From a virus (lineage: Duplodnaviria > Caudoviricetes): a DNA stretch of 64,000 bases. The stretch is from positions 32,001 to 96,000 of IMG/VR virus record IMGVR_UViG_3300028833_000087. One strand, written 5' to 3'. Every line of letters begins with the position of its first letter. Position 1 is the first letter of the stretch. The notes beneath the pieces were generated by a model, which had not been told where the DNA came from, made no database searches, and worked only from the letters and a program-made list of their open reading frames with translations. The translations under genes and the position numbers were made by a program. This document shows, in pieces, positions 37,112 to 64,000 of the stretch.

Positions 37112-37378
37112 CTAAGATACCTCCTCTTTTTATTAAGAATGTAAAGCTGTATATTTATAGTTATATATTATAAATATGGAACATATAGTGATTCACCAAA
37201 ATACTACGCTTACCTCGTAGTCATAACGGGTACGATGCACCCGAAGCATCCCCACAGCAAACCTAAGCTAATGGTAAAAATTCTGGCACAGGTATTGGAT
37301 TCGGCCTGGTTAAATAATAGAATTGTAGGGATAGGTAAGATCCCACTTCCTAATTATATTAGGAGAAAGGAGGTCGTT

Positions 37379-38398
37379 ATGATAACCTCTACAAATTTTG
37401 GTACCGAAAACTTTGCAAAGTCCGCATCAGAAGTATTGCGGAGCGCTAAATCTGTTGTGTTGTATGTCCACGACGGATTGTTTCATGCTGATGATGTACT
37501 GTGTGCTGTTCTGTTCGAGGCACATTATAAAAATATCGACAGAAAGGTTATTCGCCGTCGAATGACAATTGATGATATCGAGGAGTTAAAATCACTCGAC
37601 GATGGCATCACCCGTATTGTCTGTGATACAGGGTGTCAGGATTTAGTCACAGACAACTTGTTAGTGCTTGATCATCATTCGGATAACAAGTTAACTTACA
37701 TGAATGGTGTACAGTATGCAGCTGTAGGAAAGTTTGCTAGCTGCTTACGCTGGGCATTTCCTGATTCCAAGATTGCATCATCAGGCCTGTATAATTTTCA
37801 GAAGACAGTGCTCTGGCCAGTTGAAGTTCAGGACAATGGTCAGAAAGCTGAGGATCTGAACATCCAACTGTATCCTAATTTATTTAGCTGGATTAGTGTT
37901 TTCAACTGCTCATGGAATGAAGATTGGACCGAGTCTAGTGACAGATTCTTTGAAGCAGTTGAGCTGGCGACTAAAATCCTTGATCGCCAGTTTACAAGAT
38001 TGGAAGGTCTGGTCGAAGCTTGGGAAATAGTAGAGAATGAAATTGAATCTCTGAATCCTTCCGAGATACTTGTTCTTGGCAAGTATGTTCCTTGGCAGGA
38101 GCCGGTAATTGGATATAATCAGCTACATTGTAACCAGATTAAGCTGATTATATTTAAGTCCACCGGAGATCAGTGGAACTGCCAGTGCGTCCCTGTAGCA
38201 CTTGGTAGTTTTGATACGATAATTAAAGCACCGGAAGAATGGGGAGGTAAGACAGGAGTTGAGCTTGAAGTCCTGTCTGGTATAGAAGGAGCAGTATTCT
38301 GTCACCGTGGACTTTGGCTCACTGTATGGAAAACAAAAGACGCTGCTCTTAAAGCTGCAGAATTAATTCTGGATAAAAATTCTACAGAAAGCGAATGA
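37379..38398 (+). CDS. MYG1/UPF0160-family DHH exonuclease
   Basis: HDGLFHADD, LDHH, APEEWGG..G.EL...SGI.GA.FCH; start after AAAGGAGG. Confidence 0.88.
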   Translation: MITSTNFGTENFAKSASEVLRSAKSVVLYVHDGLFHADDVLCAVLFEAHYKNIDRKVIRRRMTIDDIEELKSLDDGITRIVCDTGCQDLVTDNLLVLDHHSDNKLTYMNGVQYAAVGKFASCLRWAFPDSKIASSGLYNFQKTVLWPVEVQDNGQKAEDLNIQLYPNLFSWISVFNCSWNEDWTESSDRFFEAVELATKILDRQFTRLEGLVEAWEIVENEIESLNPSEILVLGKYVPWQEPVIGYNQLHCNQIKLIIFKSTGDQWNCQCVPVALGSFDTIIKAPEEWGGKTGVELEVLSGIEGAVFCHRGLWLTVWKTKDAALKAAELILDKNSTESE

Positions 38399-58832: not shown

Positions 58833-59930
58833 ATGAAAGTTCTGCTTATAGGTATTGGTGCTGCTGGTAATAAAGCTGTAGTTCAAGCTGTAGAAGATAA
58901 GGTTATTGCTGAAGAAGATTCTATTATTATTAATTCTACTGATAAAGATTTCCCAAAAGAATTTAATGGAAAGAAAATGATTTTATCTCCTAATAATCAG
59001 GGATGTGGTAAAGAAAGAGCAACTGCCTATGCTTTTACTAAAGCTCTAATTGAAAATGATACTCTTAATATTGATTGTTCTAAATATAATACAGTAATTG
59101 TTTGTGCATCTGTTGAAGGTGGTACAGGATCTGGTTCAGCTCCTTTGATTGCTAAATACTTTAAGCATGTCCATAATAGAAATGTACATGTGATTGCTTT
59201 TATTGGATTTGAAGATGATCCTAGAGGATTATCAAATACTGTAGAATTCTTTAAAGAATTAGAATCTGATCTTATTGTACAGACTATTAGAAATTCTTCT
59301 TTTATGAAACAAGCTGGTGGTAATAAGTTTAAAGCTGAAGAATTAGCTAATAAAGAAATGAGCAAGAGAATTAAGATTATTACTGGTCAGCAGTTTCTAA
59401 ATTCTGAACAGAATATTGATGATACTGATATTCTTAAAGTATCAAATACTGCAGGATATATGACTGTAGAAGAAAAGTATTTAGATAAGAATTTAGAAAC
59501 TGTAGAAGATTTTAATAAAGTGGTTAAGAATATGATTTATAATTCTCACTCTATTAAATCTAATTCTCCTAAGGCTATTCGTATTGGTGTTATTCTTAAT
59601 ATTGAACCTGGTTCAGAAGATGCTATTGATTATACATTTACTGATATCACTGAAGCATATGGTAATCCTTATGAAAAATATCTTCAGAAACAATGGGATG
59701 GTAATAAAGAATATATTCAGTGGATTGTATCTGGTATGCAGATGCCGTTAGATGAGATTAAAGAGATTTATGATAGATATCTTGCTGAATCTGATAAGGT
59801 ACAGAAAGACGCTGATACTTTCTTTAAAACAATGGAAACAATGCAGATGGATAGTAGTAATTCTAGATTCGATATGATTAAACCTGAAGAAAAGAAAATG
59901 AGCAAAGATGCATTTTTAAAGAATCTATAA
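58833..59930 (+). CDS. tubulin/FtsZ-family GTPase (PhuZ/TubZ-like)
   Basis: IGIGAAGNK, GCGK, tubulin signature GGTGSG, T7-like NIDDTD. Confidence 0.9.
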   Translation: MKVLLIGIGAAGNKAVVQAVEDKVIAEEDSIIINSTDKDFPKEFNGKKMILSPNNQGCGKERATAYAFTKALIENDTLNIDCSKYNTVIVCASVEGGTGSGSAPLIAKYFKHVHNRNVHVIAFIGFEDDPRGLSNTVEFFKELESDLIVQTIRNSSFMKQAGGNKFKAEELANKEMSKRIKIITGQQFLNSEQNIDDTDILKVSNTAGYMTVEEKYLDKNLETVEDFNKVVKNMIYNSHSIKSNSPKAIRIGVILNIEPGSEDAIDYTFTDITEAYGNPYEKYLQKQWDGNKEYIQWIVSGMQMPLDEIKEIYDRYLAESDKVQKDADTFFKTMETMQMDSSNSRFDMIKPEEKKMSKDAFLKNL

Positions 59931-59935
59931 TTAAA

Positions 59936-59961
59936 ACCCTGGACGAATATTCGTCCAGGGT
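59936..59961 (+). terminator. hairpin ending the tubulin gene
   Basis: accctggacgaa/ttcgtccagggt. Confidence 0.75.
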
Positions 59962-59978
59962 AATATATTAAATAATAA

Positions 59979-59987
59979 TATATTATA
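59979..59987 (+). promoter_or_regulatory. phage early-type promoter motif TATATTATA upstream of the pentamer array
   Basis: Same motif at 7815, 26946, 36155, 37164, 39901 and 49537; variants at 9670, 33886 and ~63175. Confidence 0.65.
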
Positions 59988-60010
59988 AATATGAAAGGAG
60001 GTTAATAATT

Positions 60011-60526
60011 TTAGTAATTGTGTAGTTGCGTACTACGATGTGCGGTTAGGCTAAGTATATGCTTTGTATTGTGCGGTAGAGCGATGTGGTGTATATGTAT
60101 AGTAGTGTATTATTTTAGTTCAGTAGAGTAAAGTAAATGTGAAGTGAAGTGCTGAAACTTGTAGTGTGGCATATGTAAGGTTTGACAATGTATTGTCGAG
60201 TAAATGTATAGTGAAGTATGGTAACGCCTAGTCAAGTACAGTAGTGTAAATGCATAGTCGAGTCCTGTGTCGTAAATGTATTGCCAGGTAGTATGGTGTA
60301 CTAGTATAGTCACTTACTGCTCAGTATAGTCAAGTAAATGTATTGTGACGTAGCATAACGTTATGTTCAGCGGTGTAAATGTATAGCGACGTAAAGTTTA
60401 GTTCTGTAAATGTATGGTAATACACATTGTGCCAATACGTGGTAATGTATTTGTAAAGTAAGGTATATTTAAATTACGTGAAGTAAATGTAAAGTAAGGT
60501 TGGGTAAAGTATTATTAAGTAAATAT
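60011..60526 (+). repeat. pentamer-periodic array, left arm: (NNNGY)4-8 blocks separated by AAATGT-like hexamers
   Basis: Example: aaatgt-atagt-gaagt-atggt-aacgc-ctagt-caagt-acagt-agtgt-aaatgc; about 14 blocks by manual parse. Confidence 0.9.
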
Positions 60527-60539
60527 TTAAAGAAAGGAG

Positions 60540-60845
60540 ATGGTGTTTATGCATGATATGAGAAGAAAGAAAGATCGAATTTGGCGTGAAGCCAAAGGAA
60601 TCTGCTCTCATTGTGGTCATAAGATCTATAGTATGAGAAATAAAACTTTAGATCATTTTATTCCAAAATCATGCTTCGGATCTTATGATGAGAGAAATTT
60701 ATTTGCGCTATGTAAAAGATGTAATGAAGAAAGGGGGAATGCTCTTGTAGGACTTGATTACTATGTATATGCGTCTGAAAACAAAAAGATGCAAGCATAT
60801 CAATACGGACTTGAATACAATACCAGAACATCTTCTATGCAGTAA
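60540..60845 (+). CDS. HNH endonuclease (McrA-like, two CxxC pairs) embedded in the array
   Basis: CSHCG...TLDHFIPKS..GS....NL..LCKRCN..RG; AAAGGAG RBS (start could be ATG 60549). Confidence 0.88.
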   Translation: MVFMHDMRRKKDRIWREAKGICSHCGHKIYSMRNKTLDHFIPKSCFGSYDERNLFALCKRCNEERGNALVGLDYYVYASENKKMQAYQYGLEYNTRTSSMQ

Positions 60846-61178
60846 ATGTATAGTGTAGTGAAGTGGAGCCCAGTAAATGCAAGTTAAAGTCTAGTATCAT
60901 ATGGTATAGTACAGTAAAGTATATGTAAAGTACGGTGTAGTAAAATACAGTAAATGTTTTGTAGGGTATTGTGCCATTTTGTGAAGTGATTGTATGGTGA
61001 AGTAGAGTACAGTAAATGTAAGGTGTAATGGAGTATGGTCTGGTAAAGTAGATGTGAGGTAACGCACAGTTTTGTGCTGTTGGATGATGTATATGTAAGG
61101 TGAGGCGTAGCAGTGCTGAGTCGTGTGGTGTAATGGCGAAGTGGTGCAGAGTCATGCTTTGTGATGTAAAGTAATTGT
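60839..61178 (+). repeat. pentamer-periodic array, right arm
   Basis: Example: atatgt-aaggt-gaggc-gtagc-agtgc-tgagt-cgtgt-ggtgt-aatggc; 9 blocks by manual parse. Confidence 0.9.
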
Positions 61179-61183
61179 TCGAT

Positions 61184-61223
61184 TATACAAGCATACTTAC
61201 AATTTAGTAAGTATGCTTGTATA
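61184..61223. terminator. 17-bp perfect hairpin closing the array
   Basis: tatacaagcatacttac / gtaagtatgcttgtata; there is no clear U tract, so it may be a processing or stability stem. Confidence 0.6.
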
Positions 61224-61244: not shown

Positions 61245-62138
61245 ATGAGTTTATTTGATAATTTTTTAAATCAAATAAAAGAAAGTCCTAAATCTGAAAA
61301 AGTTCATATTCCTCTATATAATACTATAGAGTATAAAATATCTACTTTAGTAGATATGATAAATAATGTAGATTCTATATCTGATGAAGAATTAAAGAAT
61401 GTAATCATAAGACAGCATAAAATGATATTAAATTATGATCCATTCTTATCTAATCAAGATACTAGAAGATCTGCATTAAAGTTATTTACAAATAAAAGGT
61501 TCCTTAATTTATTTCTTGAAGTTATTGGATTCTTGGATTTATCAAGAGAACAAGTTATTTGTATAAATAAACTTGCTTATGATTATTATGTATCTAATAA
61601 TAAAGAAAAAGAAATATCAGAACTATTATTATCTATTTGCTATCTTATCAATAATCAATTGATTATTCGACTTTCTGCAAAGATGGATATTACAAATGCG
61701 AGAGTTTTATCAATGATAGCTAACTCTACATTTAAAATAGAAAAGAAAGTTCATAGAGTAAATGTATTCTTTTTAAAGAAAGATACAAATAAAGAATTTA
61801 CTGTACAAGATTATATAGATATTTATATAATACTATTTGATCATTTTAGAGAATTATTTACATATTCAATGTTTGAAGCTTGGACAACTCCTATCACAGA
61901 TGAGTGTGCTCAATTACAATATGATAGATTCTTAAGAATGTCAGCAGCTTTAATAATTATGCTTGATAGTTTAACAAGTAAAGATATAGCGACAGTATTA
62001 AGAGAATATGGCTACACTTTGTCTATGATACCGAATAGTCCTATTAGATTTTCTATAAAGAATATGAAAAAGTATGATAGAATCAAAGATATAGCACATA
62101 GTCTTGAAGTAAATGAAAATGATATTTTAATTCCCTAA
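61245..62138 (+). CDS. hypothetical protein
   Basis: 297 aa with AAGGAG RBS; helical character. Confidence 0.72.
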   Translation: MSLFDNFLNQIKESPKSEKVHIPLYNTIEYKISTLVDMINNVDSISDEELKNVIIRQHKMILNYDPFLSNQDTRRSALKLFTNKRFLNLFLEVIGFLDLSREQVICINKLAYDYYVSNNKEKEISELLLSICYLINNQLIIRLSAKMDITNARVLSMIANSTFKIEKKVHRVNVFFLKKDTNKEFTVQDYIDIYIILFDHFRELFTYSMFEAWTTPITDECAQLQYDRFLRMSAALIIMLDSLTSKDIATVLREYGYTLSMIPNSPIRFSIKNMKKYDRIKDIAHSLEVNENDILIP

Positions 62139-62236: not shown

Positions 62237-63127
62237 ATGAAAATTAAAGCTTTTAAAGGATTTAATCCTGATATGACTTGTAAAAAGTTTAAATTTGTTC
62301 CTGGCGTGGAATATAGTATGGATGAAGATAAAATTAATTTGTGTACAAGAGGATTTCATTCTTGTATTATTCCTCTGCAATGTTTCAGCTATTACAAACC
62401 ATTAGCAGGTGTATTTCATGAAGTAGAAATAGATGGTGCTATGGAAATAGCAAAAGCTAATTCCAAGATAGTATCATCTAAAATTACTGTAGAAGAACAT
62501 GAATTAGATTCTAAAGAAATAGTTAATGAAACTTATGATTGTATTGAGATGCTTACAGGTGATACAGATTATCACGATACAATATTAGAAGATCTTTCAG
62601 AAAAATTAAAAAATTCTAAAATTAAAGGATCTATTAATGTTTCTAATGCTTATCGTTCTATAGCAGCATCTAATATAGATGATGATTTAGGAAATGGTTC
62701 TGTTATTAATACTGGCGGTAAATCTATTGCAGCATCTGTTGGTAATGATAAATGCGTTGCTACATCTGATACTAATTCTATAGCTGCATCTGTTGGTAAA
62801 ACAAATAATGTGATATCTGCTGGATCTAAATCTATCGCTGCATCTATAGGAGATTATAATTTGGTAACTGCAGGTAATCAGGGTGTAATTGCAGTATCTG
62901 TTGGTGAGCAATGTAAAGTTATAGCTGAAAAAGCAGGTTCTATGGCTATTATTACTACAGATTCTATTGGAAAAGGAGCTTTAAATTCTTATCTTGTATT
63001 TGTAAATACAGTTAAGAATGCTGATGAAACTACTATAGATAAAGTTATTACTATATTTATTGATGGTTCAAAATATCGTCCAAATACTTGGTATAAATTA
63101 GATAATGGTGTTGTAAAAGAAGCATAA
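62237..63127 (+). CDS. phage protein with KAFKGF/GFHSC N-terminal domain and ~11-aa SIAAS repeats (probable beta-solenoid)
   Basis: KAFKGF..DMTC, LC.RGFHSC..PL.CF.YY; repeated SIAAS(V/I)G; YRPNTWYKL. Confidence 0.72.
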   Translation: MKIKAFKGFNPDMTCKKFKFVPGVEYSMDEDKINLCTRGFHSCIIPLQCFSYYKPLAGVFHEVEIDGAMEIAKANSKIVSSKITVEEHELDSKEIVNETYDCIEMLTGDTDYHDTILEDLSEKLKNSKIKGSINVSNAYRSIAASNIDDDLGNGSVINTGGKSIAASVGNDKCVATSDTNSIAASVGKTNNVISAGSKSIAASIGDYNLVTAGNQGVIAVSVGEQCKVIAEKAGSMAIITTDSIGKGALNSYLVFVNTVKNADETTIDKVITIFIDGSKYRPNTWYKLDNGVVKEA

Positions 63128-63254
63128 TATATAAGCCCTAGAGGAGAAATCCTCTAGGGTAAATTTTTTCATAATTATATATAATATATGTGTAAAATAG
63201 TTTTGATTGTATCCCTTATACAATCATTAAAAATCATTTAAGGAGGAAACAAAA

Positions 63255-64000
63255 ATGGTTGAAGAACAGGTAATGAAGGTGCGTTTAACGTTCCTGCAGG
63301 ATGTGCTGGGAACACAGCCCACAGACTCAAAGATCTATGAGTCCTTTCTGGCTACCAAGATGAGAAAAGAAATGGAGAAATCTGGGTACAAGGAAGAGAA
63401 GATCGATGAGAAGATCAATAAGGGTATGGAAGCACTTCCGAACAACGAAGATGGGGAATTCTATCGTGATGGCGTTACGGTATTTCCTCGTCTGAAGATC
63501 AAGGAAACCGGAGAAGAGATCCCGGCTATTGAAGGATACTTACTCAAAGGATTCTTCAAGAATGCATGCTGGGCATGTGCAAAAGCAGATGGATTGTCCG
63601 CAGAACTGTCAGCTTACAAAAAGTACATTGACAATATGACTGATGTAAATGAGATCAGTCCTATCATTGTCAACGACGATGTAAAGAAATACATGGAGGA
63701 GCATAAAGGAACTCTTCCTTTATTTCAGCGTCCGATCAGAATTTCCGACAGAAATGGTGAGCGTGTAGCGCTTGCTTGCTCAGAGTATGTACCGGCTGGT
63801 AGCTATATCGATTTTGAAATCACAGCTATGTCTGAAGAGGCATTGAATTTCGTTATCGAATGGCTCAACTACGGCAAGCATAATGGACTTTGCTGCTGGA
63901 GAAATTCTGGTAAAGGAAAGTTTGACTGGATCGATCTTGATCTTGGTGCTAAGAGGGAGATTAATCCCAAAGCAATCAAGAAAAAAGGTAAGAAAAAGAA
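63255..64000 (+). CDS. Cas7/Csm3-like RAMP-fold protein (runs off the window end; absent from the ORF track)
   Basis: AGGAGG RBS, at least 248 open codons; KVRLTFLQDVLG, PAIEGYLLKGFFKNA, SEYVPAGSYIDFEI, glycine-rich loop GLCCWRNSGKGKF. Confidence 0.8.
   Translation, partial: MVEEQVMKVRLTFLQDVLGTQPTDSKIYESFLATKMRKEMEKSGYKEEKIDEKINKGMEALPNNEDGEFYRDGVTVFPRLKIKETGEEIPAIEGYLLKGFFKNACWACAKADGLSAELSAYKKYIDNMTDVNEISPIIVNDDVKKYMEEHKGTLPLFQRPIRISDRNGERVALACSEYVPAGSYIDFEITAMSEEALNFVIEWLNYGKHNGLCCWRNSGKGKFDWIDLDLGAKREINPKAIKKKGKKK

What the first reader, a model, noticed from the sequence alone, without database searches (positions are those of the whole stretch)
63255..64000. Unannotated stand-alone Cas7/RAMP-like gene with Lys-rich tail
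Seen: an open frame from ATG 63255 to the window end, missed by the track because its stop lies outside the window. Motifs parallel Csm3/Cas7: first beta strand ending LG; PAIEGYLLKG (cf. P.IPGSSLKG); EYVPAGS.IDFEI (cf. E.VP.G..F.F.I); G-loop GLCCWRNSGKGKF (cf. GLGG..SRGYG.V). It is more GC-rich than the flanking genes and ends in KKKGKKK. Inference: RNA-binding backbone for the nearby array, or an anti-CRISPR Cas7 decoy.
Basis: partly seen in the sequence, partly recalled or inferred. Interest (0 to 1): 0.82.

Follow-up and report, generated by a model that had tools for sequence, protein, structure and literature searches.

The report
Phage Vipr (Cas7-like) guide-RNA backbone gene
The open frame is a real 254-residue gene for a lone Cas7-like protein of the phage "VIPR" systems first described in 2026 preprints, which coat five-base-repeat guide RNAs encoded beside the gene; it is a clean further example of a published kind, not a new kind.

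Summary
The ORF is real: ATG 63255, stop 19 nt past the window end, 254 aa. Sequence libraries are blank for the single protein. A confident AlphaFold model (pLDDT 88.5) matches Csm3/Cas7 chains best in two independent structure searches (Foldseek E 8e-8; VIA Z 13.2). The family profile hits type VII Cas7 and Csm4 at the glycine-rich loop.

The gene is not an orphan. The only three 5-nt-periodic GY-NNN arrays in the 121-kb record lie next to it, one directly downstream. In 62 of 80 phage loci encoding homologues, such an array lies within 300 nt on the same strand. This is the architecture of VIPR systems (Vipr RAMP plus pentamer-repeat vrRNAs; bioRxiv 10.64898/2026.04.26.720920 and .720927). 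The family is distantly but detectably related to the solved SUSP1 Vipr.

New here:
- The raised GC matches the codon bias of the major head gene, and the two genes share an identical 23-nt ribosome-binding region, which suggests high expression.
- The two SUSP1 residues that read the first G of GGY are not conserved, which fits the GY repeat.
- No targets were found.

This scan has reported VIPR loci before on other DNA (hundreds of genomes) and on this same locus. Verdict: new member of a known kind.

The parts
63135..63160 (+). Terminator hairpin of the preceding DUF7666 gene; it marks the start of the vipr transcription unit
   Evidence: Terminator-like site at L001 1436-1461, 11-pair stem followed by a T run; DUF7666 match for ORF 62237-63127.
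63173..63186 (+). AT-rich promoter-like motif AATTATATATAATA upstream of vipr (inferred phage promoter)
   Evidence: The motif AATWATATATWATA occurs 21 times in the window against 7.2 expected. Exact copies lie here and before array 1. Promoter function is an inference.
63237..63259 (+). Translation initiation region, 23 nt identical to that of the major head protein gene
   Evidence: Second 100% match in the genome at C1:108514-108536, minus strand. The alignment shows the shared segment TTTAAGGAGGAAACAAAAATGGT. That ORF matches the major head protein family phrog_20655, E 1.5e-16.
63255..64000 (+). vipr coding sequence (residues 1-248 of 254). It continues 19 nt beyond the window to a TAA at L001:2318-2320. 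Beyond the window, in L001 coordinates, follow a hairpin plus intrinsic terminator (2324-2384), pentamer array 3 (about 2400-2791) and a 17-pair terminator (2793-2829).
   Evidence: ORF. Model pLDDT 88.5. Csm3/Cas7 are the best structural matches. Profile hit to type VII Cas7. Single copy in the genome. 3' hairpin and terminator: -31.2 kcal/mol, z -5.4. Array 3. Final terminator.
59974..59987 (+). Second exact copy of the promoter-like motif, in front of array 1
   Evidence: It follows a perfect 13-nt hairpin at 59936-59961.
59990..60535 (+). Pentamer array 1 (GY-NNN register broken by 6-nt A(A/T)ATG(T/C) steps); candidate vrRNA array
   Evidence: GT autocorrelation peaks at lags 5, 10, 15/16 and 20/21. 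This is one of only three such regions in 121 kb, all on the + strand. Unit parsing with mostly 5n+1 spacings.
60540..60845 (+). HNH endonuclease gene (101 aa) lying between arrays 1 and 2. It is either an accessory (vap-like) gene or a homing-endonuclease insertion.
   Evidence: PF01844 HNH, E 3.3e-8; many HNH PHROGs. The VIPR paper lists HNH-containing Vap proteins. Its role here is untested.
60836..61185 (+). Pentamer array 2
61184..61223 (+). Perfect 17-nt inverted repeat closing array 2
   Evidence: Inverted repeat I1, arms 61184-61200 and 61207-61223, 100% complementary.

Best explanation
The gene encodes the Vipr protein of a phage VIPR system. Vipr is a single-RRM RAMP protein related to Cas7/Csm3. 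It is probably made in large amounts and polymerises head to tail on transcripts of the neighbouring pentamer arrays, one protomer per 5-nt repeat. In that model it holds the constant G-Y of each repeat in protein pockets and displays the variable bases for pairing with a target. By analogy with the characterised type II systems, the resulting filament binds double-stranded DNA of competing mobile elements, or possibly host defence genes, and silences it. Shown here: the fold, the family, the genome-wide and family-wide linkage to 5-nt-periodic arrays, the absence of cas genes and CRISPR arrays in the record, and the expression-type codon bias. Inferred: RNA binding, filament formation (prediction only), DNA targeting, and what is targeted.
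For: (1) Fold. The AF2 model has pLDDT 88.5 and pTM 0.82. Foldseek against the PDB gives 142 matches at E<=1e-3, and those listed are chains of type III Csm and type VII effector complexes (best E 7.7e-8). VIA-align over 48,161 chains ranks a Csm-complex chain first (9g9a_D, Z 13.2, rmsd 3.6, 167 residues) and Csm3 6ae2_B second (Z 12.2). Cmr4, Cas7-11, type IV and type I Cas7 follow.
(2) Sequence. The family profile hits type VII Cas7 (E 2.1e-6) and Csm4 (E 1.1e-4) across strand 3, helix 2 and the G-loop. A BFVD homologue is named 'Cas system-associated RAMP superfamily protein'.
(3) Arrays. The only three GT period-5 regions in 121 kb lie within 4.5 kb of the gene, all on its strand, one directly behind it. 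In 62 of 80 IMG/VR loci with a homologue, a GY period-5 array lies within 300 nt on the same strand, although such arrays make up only 3.2% of those bases (examples).
(4) This is the published VIPR architecture: a lone RAMP plus pentamer-repeat vrRNAs in phages, including YNNNG repeats and staggered arrays. The published structure has one protomer per repeat in a helical filament.
(5) Link to the characterised protein. I located the SUSP1 locus and its Vipr, which equals PDB 36pp_D. Profile against profile gives probability 68%, E 4.9e-5, over 178 collinear columns. The SUSP1-clade HMM ranks 68 members of this family ahead of all 2116 decoy ORFs.
(6) W215 (invariant) and R216 (R or H) align with SUSP1 W178 and R179, which hold G2 and Y3. 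H17 and D177, which read G1, have no conserved counterpart. This fits a GY rather than a GGY constant.
(7) A three-copy prediction scores 0.54 against 0.01 for the best of 3 controls; the mark was reached by 20 of 30 proteins solved as pairs of one chain and by 1 of 23 solved as single chains. The three runs agree in at least 50% of contacts and partner pLDDT is at least 71. Contacts are head to tail and involve helix 1 and the G-loop. The model supports binding but does not show it, and likeness to solved Cas7 filaments may contribute.
(8) Expression. The TIR is identical to that of the major head gene. Codon usage correlates with the head gene (r 0.69) more than with bulk genes (r 0.46), and the gene ranks 2nd of 85 ORFs for head-like codon use. 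This is expected for a protein needed at one copy per 5 nt of guide.
(9) No Cas1, Cas6 or Pfam RAMP match in the record, and the gene is single copy.
Against: The sequence link to the characterised Vipr is distant; hhalign probability is only 68%, and the SUSP1-clade HMM does not detect P0001 itself. The array units are short (3-9 pentamers) and lack the long structured 3' tail of type II vrRNAs. P0001 has Cys where 42 of 50 relatives have Gly in the G-loop (position 213). The record is estimated 49% complete, so cas genes elsewhere in the phage cannot be excluded.
Confidence: 0.85

Rival explanations
1. Anti-CRISPR decoy: a stolen Cas7 subunit that poisons host type III or type I effector complexes by joining or capping their backbone.
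For: The fold is that of Csm3/Cas7. The gene stands alone in a phage and appears strongly expressed.
Against: It does not explain why homologues in 62 of 80 phage loci sit beside 5-nt-periodic arrays on the same strand. It also does not explain why the family's conserved residues are the RNA-holding G-loop Trp/Arg shared with SUSP1 Vipr. The family is far from any host Cas7 in sequence: there is no Pfam RAMP hit and no single-sequence PDB hit. A recently captured subunit would be expected to be closer.
Confidence: 0.03
2. Fragment of a conventional CRISPR-Cas system (type III, IV or VII) whose other genes and CRISPR array lie in the unsequenced half of the phage genome.
For: The record is only about 49% complete. 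Some jumbo phages do carry CRISPR-Cas systems (general knowledge).
Against: No Cas1, Cas6 or Pfam RAMP match occurs anywhere in 121 kb. The gene is monocistronic, with its own promoter-like motif and terminator. Homologues in 40-50 kb phages also stand alone among cI/Cro-like, SSB and RecT genes. The neighbouring repeats have a 5-nt period, not the 60-80 nt period of CRISPR.
Confidence: 0.03
3. It is a Vipr-type filament former, but this GY-NNN clade does something other than silence rival DNA. For example it might bind RNA, or regulate the phage's own or host genes, using a pairing rule different from the published one.
For: The constant motif differs (GY, not GGY), and the G1-reading residues are absent. 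The guides are very short. An HNH gene is embedded in the arrays. No experiment on this repeat type appears in the VIPR papers I read.
Against: The fold, G-loop chemistry, helical bundle and array layout are collinear with the DNA-binding type II protein. The best matches of the guides in the phage's own genome are no better than those of shuffled guides.
Confidence: 0.08
4. The periodic regions are DNA-level elements, such as a centromere for the tubulin-like segregation protein encoded just upstream of array 1, or an origin of replication, and their nearness to the RAMP gene is coincidental.
For: A tubulin/FtsZ-family gene (58833-59930, PF00091 E 2.8e-10) ends 23 nt before the first periodic region. 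TubZ-type systems use iterated centromere repeats (general knowledge).
Against: The same kind of array accompanies the RAMP gene in small phages, where the conserved neighbours found were cI/Cro-like, SSB and RecT genes, not tubulin. The arrays are strictly strand-asymmetric: GT on + only, and the complementary AC signal reaches at most 3 against 18. They are also bracketed by promoter-like motifs and terminators. Both features point to transcripts.
Confidence: 0.01

Closest known systems
VIPR systems with alternative YNNNG repeats and 'staggered' vrRNA arrays (bioRxiv 10.64898/2026.04.26.720920, methods and fig. S18 legend); non-canonical VIPR arrays such as WGT/NN (bioRxiv 10.64898/2026.10.21.760802)
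   Same: A lone phage-encoded RAMP gene flanked by non-coding pentamer arrays. The constant part is G followed by a pyrimidine and the other three positions vary. Units abut one another with 5n+1 spacing rather than being separated by long tails. No CRISPR array or cas operon is present.
   Different: Those papers give no experiment or reading rule for this repeat type in the text I could read, and their tables were not available. I therefore cannot say which of the seven types this is, or whether this clade was in their set. Features specific to this case are a jumbo-size AT-rich phage (its protein also occurs on a 236-kb contig), about 30 short units in three arrays, an HNH gene inside the arrays, a Lys-rich tail, and head-gene-like codon usage.
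Type II VIPR of Escherichia phage SUSP1 (Vipr = PDB 36pp_D; GGY/NN vrRNAs; cryo-EM filament, bioRxiv 10.64898/2026.04.26.720927)
   Same: Collinear domain order: strand 1, helical bundle, helix 1, thumb-like hairpin, helix 2, G-loop, last strand. The G-loop core G-x-G-x-W-R...G-[RK]-F is shared. The family-level sequence relation is detectable. Arrays lie both upstream and downstream of the gene.
   Different: No direct pairwise similarity to P0001. Here the repeat constant is GY rather than GGY. SUSP1 H17 and D177, which read the first G, have no conserved counterpart. There is no adjacent small vap1-like gene. The vrRNA units are shorter and lack a pseudoknot tail. P0001 carries two insertions (about residues 33-70 and 139-155) and a basic tail.
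Csm3 / Cas7 backbone subunits of type III-A and type VII CRISPR effectors (e.g. 6ae2_B, 9g9a_D, 8yhd_A)
   Same: Best structural matches (Z 10.6-13.2). Shared RRM core and glycine-rich loop, with significant profile similarity at the G-loop. Predicted head-to-tail self-association resembling a Cas7 backbone.
   Different: It does not reach the Pfam RAMP model. No cas10, csm or cas6 genes and no CRISPR array are present. The associated RNA has a 5-nt rather than a 6-nt register. I did not test for the Csm3 catalytic aspartate.

Membership tests
VIPR (Vipr protein + vrRNA) | Small stand-alone RAMP-fold protein with one RRM core, glycine-rich loop, thumb and helical bundle | tested here: met
   Model pLDDT 88.5. 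Csm3/Cas7 rank top in Foldseek and VIA-align. G-loop profile hit. The order of secondary-structure elements is collinear with the published description. Assigning the 156-179 hairpin as the thumb is an inference.
VIPR (Vipr protein + vrRNA) | Homology to an experimentally characterised Vipr (SUSP1, PDB 36pp) | tested here: met
   Met at family level only, and the relation is distant. hhalign A3 against A2 gives probability 68%, E 4.9e-5, 178 columns. The SUSP1-clade HMM ranks 68 family members before the first of 2116 decoys. That HMM does not detect P0001 itself.
VIPR (Vipr protein + vrRNA) | Flanking non-coding arrays of tandem pentanucleotide repeats with a constant G-containing motif and hypervariable positions | tested here: met
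   Three GY-NNN arrays, the only ones in the genome, with one directly downstream. The variable positions carry little information. The same linkage holds in 62 of 80 homologue loci.
VIPR (Vipr protein + vrRNA) | Encoded by a virus or provirus, without a CRISPR array or cas operon | tested here: met
   The record is a virus contig with major head, tubulin-like and radical-SAM activase (Fer4_12) genes. No Cas1, Cas6 or Pfam RAMP match. Caveat: the record is about 49% complete.
VIPR (Vipr protein + vrRNA) | Arrays are transcribed into small RNAs that co-purify with the protein | not testable with these tools
The only indirect signs are promoter-like motifs, terminators and strand asymmetry.
VIPR (Vipr protein + vrRNA) | Protomers oligomerise into a filament, one per repeat | tested here: met
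   Prediction only. The three-copy model scores 0.54 against 0.01 for the best of 3 controls; the mark was reached by 20 of 30 proteins solved as pairs of one chain and by 1 of 23 solved as single chains. The runs agree in at least 50% of contacts and partner pLDDT is at least 71. Contacts are head to tail through helix 1 and the G-loop. The pass may owe something to likeness to solved Cas7 filaments.
VIPR (Vipr protein + vrRNA) | Guides match natural DNA targets under a gapped pairing rule | tested here: inconclusive
   Twelve exact-match collection scans with four guides under 0-skip and 1-skip rules found nothing. A mismatch-tolerant local scan was no better than shuffled guides. Exact matching and an unknown rule make this a weak test.
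VIPR (Vipr protein + vrRNA) | Accessory vap gene in the locus | tested here: inconclusive
   An HNH gene sits between arrays 1 and 2, and HNH-containing Vaps are mentioned in the paper. No accessory gene is conserved across the 80 homologue loci.
VIPR type II (SUSP1 / P. fulva clade, GGY/NN) | GGY constant trinucleotide, and the residues that read its first G (H17, D177 in SUSP1) | tested here: not met
   The repeat constant is GY, and the base before G is A 47%, G 24%, T 21%, C 9%. D177 aligns with Q or C and H17 falls in a gap, whereas W178 and R179 are kept as W215 and R216.
CRISPR-Cas type III Csm3 / Cas7 | Reaches the curated RAMP family model | tested here: not met
   No PF03787 match at E<=10 in the genome. 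No RAMP family in Pfam, NCBIfam or PADLOC scans of the protein.
CRISPR-Cas type III Csm3 / Cas7 | Part of a cas operon (cas10/csm, cas6) next to a CRISPR repeat-spacer array | tested here: not met
   The gene is a monocistronic unit between a DUF7666 gene and a pentamer array. No Cas1 or Cas6 in the record.
CRISPR-Cas type III Csm3 / Cas7 | Catalytic aspartate for target-RNA cleavage | not tested
   No residue-level structural superposition was available. No invariant Asp follows strand 1 in the family alignment, but equivalence was not established.

The most novel reading that the evidence does not exclude
This large Vipr clade, which adjoins GY-NNN arrays, may read three variable bases per pentamer rather than two. 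It lacks the two residues that clamp the first G in SUSP1 Vipr, so that position would have become a pairing base. The clade would then use a recognition code (NNN plus 0 or 1 skipped target base) different from the published xNN rule. In this jumbo phage the system would be expressed at capsid-gene level with about 30 very short guides.
Probability: 0.35. Interest if true: 0.55.

Novelty: new member of a known kind. Interest (0 to 1): 0.3.

Why it matters
VIPR systems are proposed in the 2026 preprints to be an ancestral, phage-borne relative of CRISPR effectors, with a programmable gapped recognition code. Only the GGY/NN type has been studied experimentally in the papers I read. This locus adds a well-delimited example of the GY-NNN, staggered-array form in a jumbo-size AT-rich phage.

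It offers two testable leads. The first is a residue-level reason why the constant motif is one G shorter. The second is signs that the protein is made at structural-protein levels. Neither changes the picture of what the system is, and the targets and reading rule for this repeat type remain open.

Tried and rejected
Direct family scans of the protein found nothing useful. Pfam gave only a sub-threshold cwf21 hit and PHROGs gave E 0.075. NCBIfam, PADLOC and phmmer against PDB sequences gave no hits.

tblastn against annotated phage records found four unannotated gut-phage records and no neighbour names.

Target hunting drew a blank:
- Four guides were searched as exact patterns under 0-skip and 1-skip rules in IMG/VR (7 scans), metagenomes (2) and genomes (3: plus none further), all with zero hits.
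- A mismatch-tolerant scan of the phage's own genome and 1.1 Mb of related loci under skips 0-3 was indistinguishable from shuffled guides.

Clustering of genes around the 80 homologues found no conserved accessory gene. It found only cI/Cro-like HTH genes, SSB and RecT at variable distances.

Foreign origin as the cause of the high GC was considered and set aside in favour of expression-linked codon bias.

The 297-aa ORF at 61245-62138 gave nothing in Pfam, PHROGs or the ESM Atlas.

The single-sequence hhalign against SUSP1 Vipr was weak (probability 6%); only the profile-profile comparison was informative.

Full report
**The observation**

The window is bases 32001-96000 of a 121,433-base IMG/VR virus record with 29% GC, estimated to be about half complete. 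Reading on in the parent record (L001), it ends at a TAA 19 bases beyond the window. The product is 254 residues and ends KKKGKKKKADDEE.

**Is it a RAMP?**

The single sequence matches nothing useful in Pfam, PHROGs, NCBIfam, PADLOC or PDB sequences. It nevertheless belongs to a large family:
- 111 clusters at 90% identity.
- 1,131 representatives at 50% identity with E<=1e-3.
- Relatives on at least 570 IMG/VR contigs.

Most members are about 200 residues long and none carries a Pfam domain. With a 25-sequence alignment, AlphaFold2 gives a confident model (pLDDT 88.5, pTM 0.82).

Foldseek against the PDB returns 142 matches at E<=1e-3. The listed ones are chains of type III Csm and type VII effector complexes (best E 7.7e-8). 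VIA-align, which does not rely on Foldseek, ranks a Csm-complex chain first (Z 13.2, rmsd 3.6 A, 167 residues) and crystallised Csm3 second (Z 12.2). Cmr4, Cas7-11, and type IV and type I Cas7 follow.

A profile of 50 family members also reaches type VII Cas7 (E 2.1e-6) and Csm4 (E 1.1e-4) by sequence alone. The motifs lie on the invariant or near-invariant columns of the family. The observation and the RAMP reading both stand.

**What surrounds it**

I scanned the whole record for dinucleotides recurring at lag 5. Only three regions stand out, all GT on the + strand: window 59953-60591, window 60776-61218, and a third that starts just after the gene's terminator. The first two are separated by a 101-residue HNH gene.

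The regions parse as G-Y-N-N-N pentamers interrupted by six-base steps, giving unit lengths that are mostly 5n+1. The gene has its own upstream terminator, a promoter-like AT-rich motif that also precedes array 1 (21 copies in the window against 7.2 expected), and a strong 3' hairpin plus intrinsic terminator (z -5.4). Array 3 ends in a 17-pair terminator. Radical-SAM activase (Fer4_12) and NrdD-like genes follow on the other strand, not cas genes. No Cas1, Cas6 or Pfam RAMP match exists in the record, and the gene is single copy.

**Is the linkage general?**

In 80 IMG/VR loci encoding homologues, a period-5 GY array lies within 300 nt of the gene on the same strand in 62. Of these, 35 are downstream, 16 upstream and 11 abutting. 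Such arrays cover only 3.2% of the bases examined. In GC-rich gut phages the constant is GC; in large AT-rich phages it is GT. This finding rests on the sequences alone.

**What it is**

[quoted passage not shown] They describe phage-encoded stand-alone RAMP proteins (Vipr) flanked by non-coding arrays of pentamer repeats (vrRNAs). The canonical repeat is GGY/NN, but YNNNG, NNNGG and NNNNG variants and 'staggered' arrays are also noted.

In the SUSP1 system the RNAs co-purify with Vipr. One protomer binds each repeat in a right-handed helical filament. The constant bases are sequestered, and the variable bases pair with double-stranded DNA while skipping every third target base. The system silences rival phages and satellites.

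I located that locus in the SUSP1 record and confirmed that its 195-residue gene is the solved Vipr, PDB 36pp. The relation between the two families is distant but detectable:
- Profile-profile comparison gives probability 68% and E 4.9e-5 over 178 collinear columns.
- The SUSP1-clade HMM places 68 members of the present family ahead of all 2,116 decoy ORFs.
- That HMM does not detect P0001 itself.

I therefore file the gene as a Vipr of a clade distinct from type II. The type number cannot be assigned because the preprint's tables were not available.

**How it most likely works**

The order of elements in the model is as follows:
- strand 1 (residues 5-13)
- helical bundle (25-59)
- helix 1, beginning Y95..G99..K102
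- a long hairpin (156-179) carrying invariant R159, R162, G168 and R170
- strand 3 and helix 2
- G-loop (209-222)
- last strand

This order matches the published Vipr description. In the aligned G-loop, SUSP1 W178 stacks on the second G and R179 holds the pyrimidine. These correspond to W215 (50 of 50) and R216 (R or H).

D177 and H17, which read the first G, correspond to Q/C and to a gap. That gives a simple reason why this clade's constant is GY rather than GGY. It is an inference from a moderate-confidence alignment.

A three-copy complex prediction passes its controls, scoring 0.54 against 0.01 for the best of 3 controls. The mark was reached by 20 of 30 proteins solved as pairs of one chain and by 1 of 23 solved as single chains. 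The runs agree in at least 50% of contacts and partner pLDDT is at least 71. Contacts are head to tail and use helix 1 and the G-loop. The tool warns that likeness to solved filaments can produce such a pass.

**The raised GC**

The gene has 42.5% GC and 45.9% GC3, against a mean GC3 of 19.3% for long ORFs. The only other place in the genome matching its leader is the start of a 587-residue ORF that is the major head protein. The two genes share an identical 23-nt ribosome-binding and start region.

Vipr codon usage correlates with the head gene (r 0.69) better than with bulk genes (r 0.46). It ranks second of 85 ORFs for head-like codon choice, with no ATA codons and a preference for AAG, CGT and ATC. 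I read this as a sign of high expression. That suits a protein needed at one copy per five nucleotides of guide, and it argues against recent foreign origin.

**The tail**

The basic-then-acidic tail is modelled with low confidence. It is shared by the closest relatives and by the homologue in a 243-kb phage. It is absent from most small-phage members. Its role is unknown.

**What remains open**

- No RNA data could be obtained.
- Twelve exact-pattern collection scans with four guides under 0-skip and 1-skip rules found nothing, and a local mismatch-tolerant scan was no better than shuffled guides. The targets and the reading rule are therefore unknown.
- The variable triplets show a mild shortage of sense stop codons (38 seen, about 57 expected over four phages). 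This hints at coding-sequence targets read in codon phase, but the evidence is weak.
- Whether the HNH gene is an accessory protein or a homing-endonuclease insertion is undecided.
- No accessory gene is conserved across the homologue loci. In temperate gut phages the gene lies in the early region among cI/Cro-like, SSB and RecT genes.

**Verdict**

The decoy alternative is not supported.

The system is a VIPR system, published in 2026. This scan has already reported VIPR loci in hundreds of other genomes, and members of this same protein family in about 20. Notes and follow-up reports also exist for this very locus. This is a new member of a known kind and of modest interest. Its main value lies in the two leads above and as a defined GY-NNN example for experiment.

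Noticed in passing
window 63237-63259 and G000:C1:108514-108536 (L086, minus strand): The vipr gene and the major head protein gene share an identical 23-nt ribosome-binding and start region. They belong to a small class of GC3-rich, ATA-avoiding ORFs. Others in that class are a 299-aa ORF at genome 4337-5236 and a 387-aa ORF at window 37235-38398, both without PHROG hits.
   Followed up: partly
window 58833-59930: A tubulin/FtsZ-family gene (PF00091 E 2.8e-10; weaker Tubulin_2) ends 23 nt before the first periodic region. This fits a jumbo phage with a PhuZ/TubZ-like cytoskeleton.
   Followed up: no
window, 21 sites, e.g. 26941, 59974, 63173: The AT-rich motif AATWATATATWATA occurs 21 times against 7.2 expected. 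Two of its exact copies (59974, 63173) follow a terminator hairpin and precede a transcription unit. It is a candidate phage promoter.
   Followed up: partly
L003:7998-13350 (IMG/VR contig of 242,978 b): The best viral-contig homologue (39% identity) also has a Lys/Ala/Glu-rich C-terminal tail. It is followed by about 4.6 kb of GT-type pentamer arrays, far longer than here.
   Followed up: partly
L004-L082 (gut-phage loci): In temperate 40-50 kb phages the homologue lies in the early region, about 1 kb from cI/Cro-type HTH genes (41 of 80 loci) and upstream of SSB and RecT genes. Its arrays use GC rather than GT as the constant.
   Followed up: partly
arrays at window 59990-61185, L001:2400-2791, and arrays of L003, L074, L077: The variable triplets between constant GY pairs have codon-like position bias (first position purine-rich). 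Sense stop codons are mildly depleted (38 against about 57 expected), but antisense stops are not.
   Followed up: partly
window 61245-62138: A 297-aa ORF between array 2 and the DUF7666 gene has no match in Pfam, PHROGs or the ESM Atlas feature search. Its relation to the VIPR locus is unknown.
   Followed up: partly
window 62237-63127: A DUF7666 protein (phrog_4433, E 1.6e-34) with a C-terminal half made of SIAAS-like repeats lies directly upstream of vipr. Its function is unknown.
   Followed up: no
L001:2324-2352 (23 nt past the window end): The first 3' UTR hairpin (GTAGCAA / TTGCTAC) encloses a short stretch written in the array's own GT-pentamer style. It could be a binding site for the protein on its own mRNA.
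   Followed up: partly
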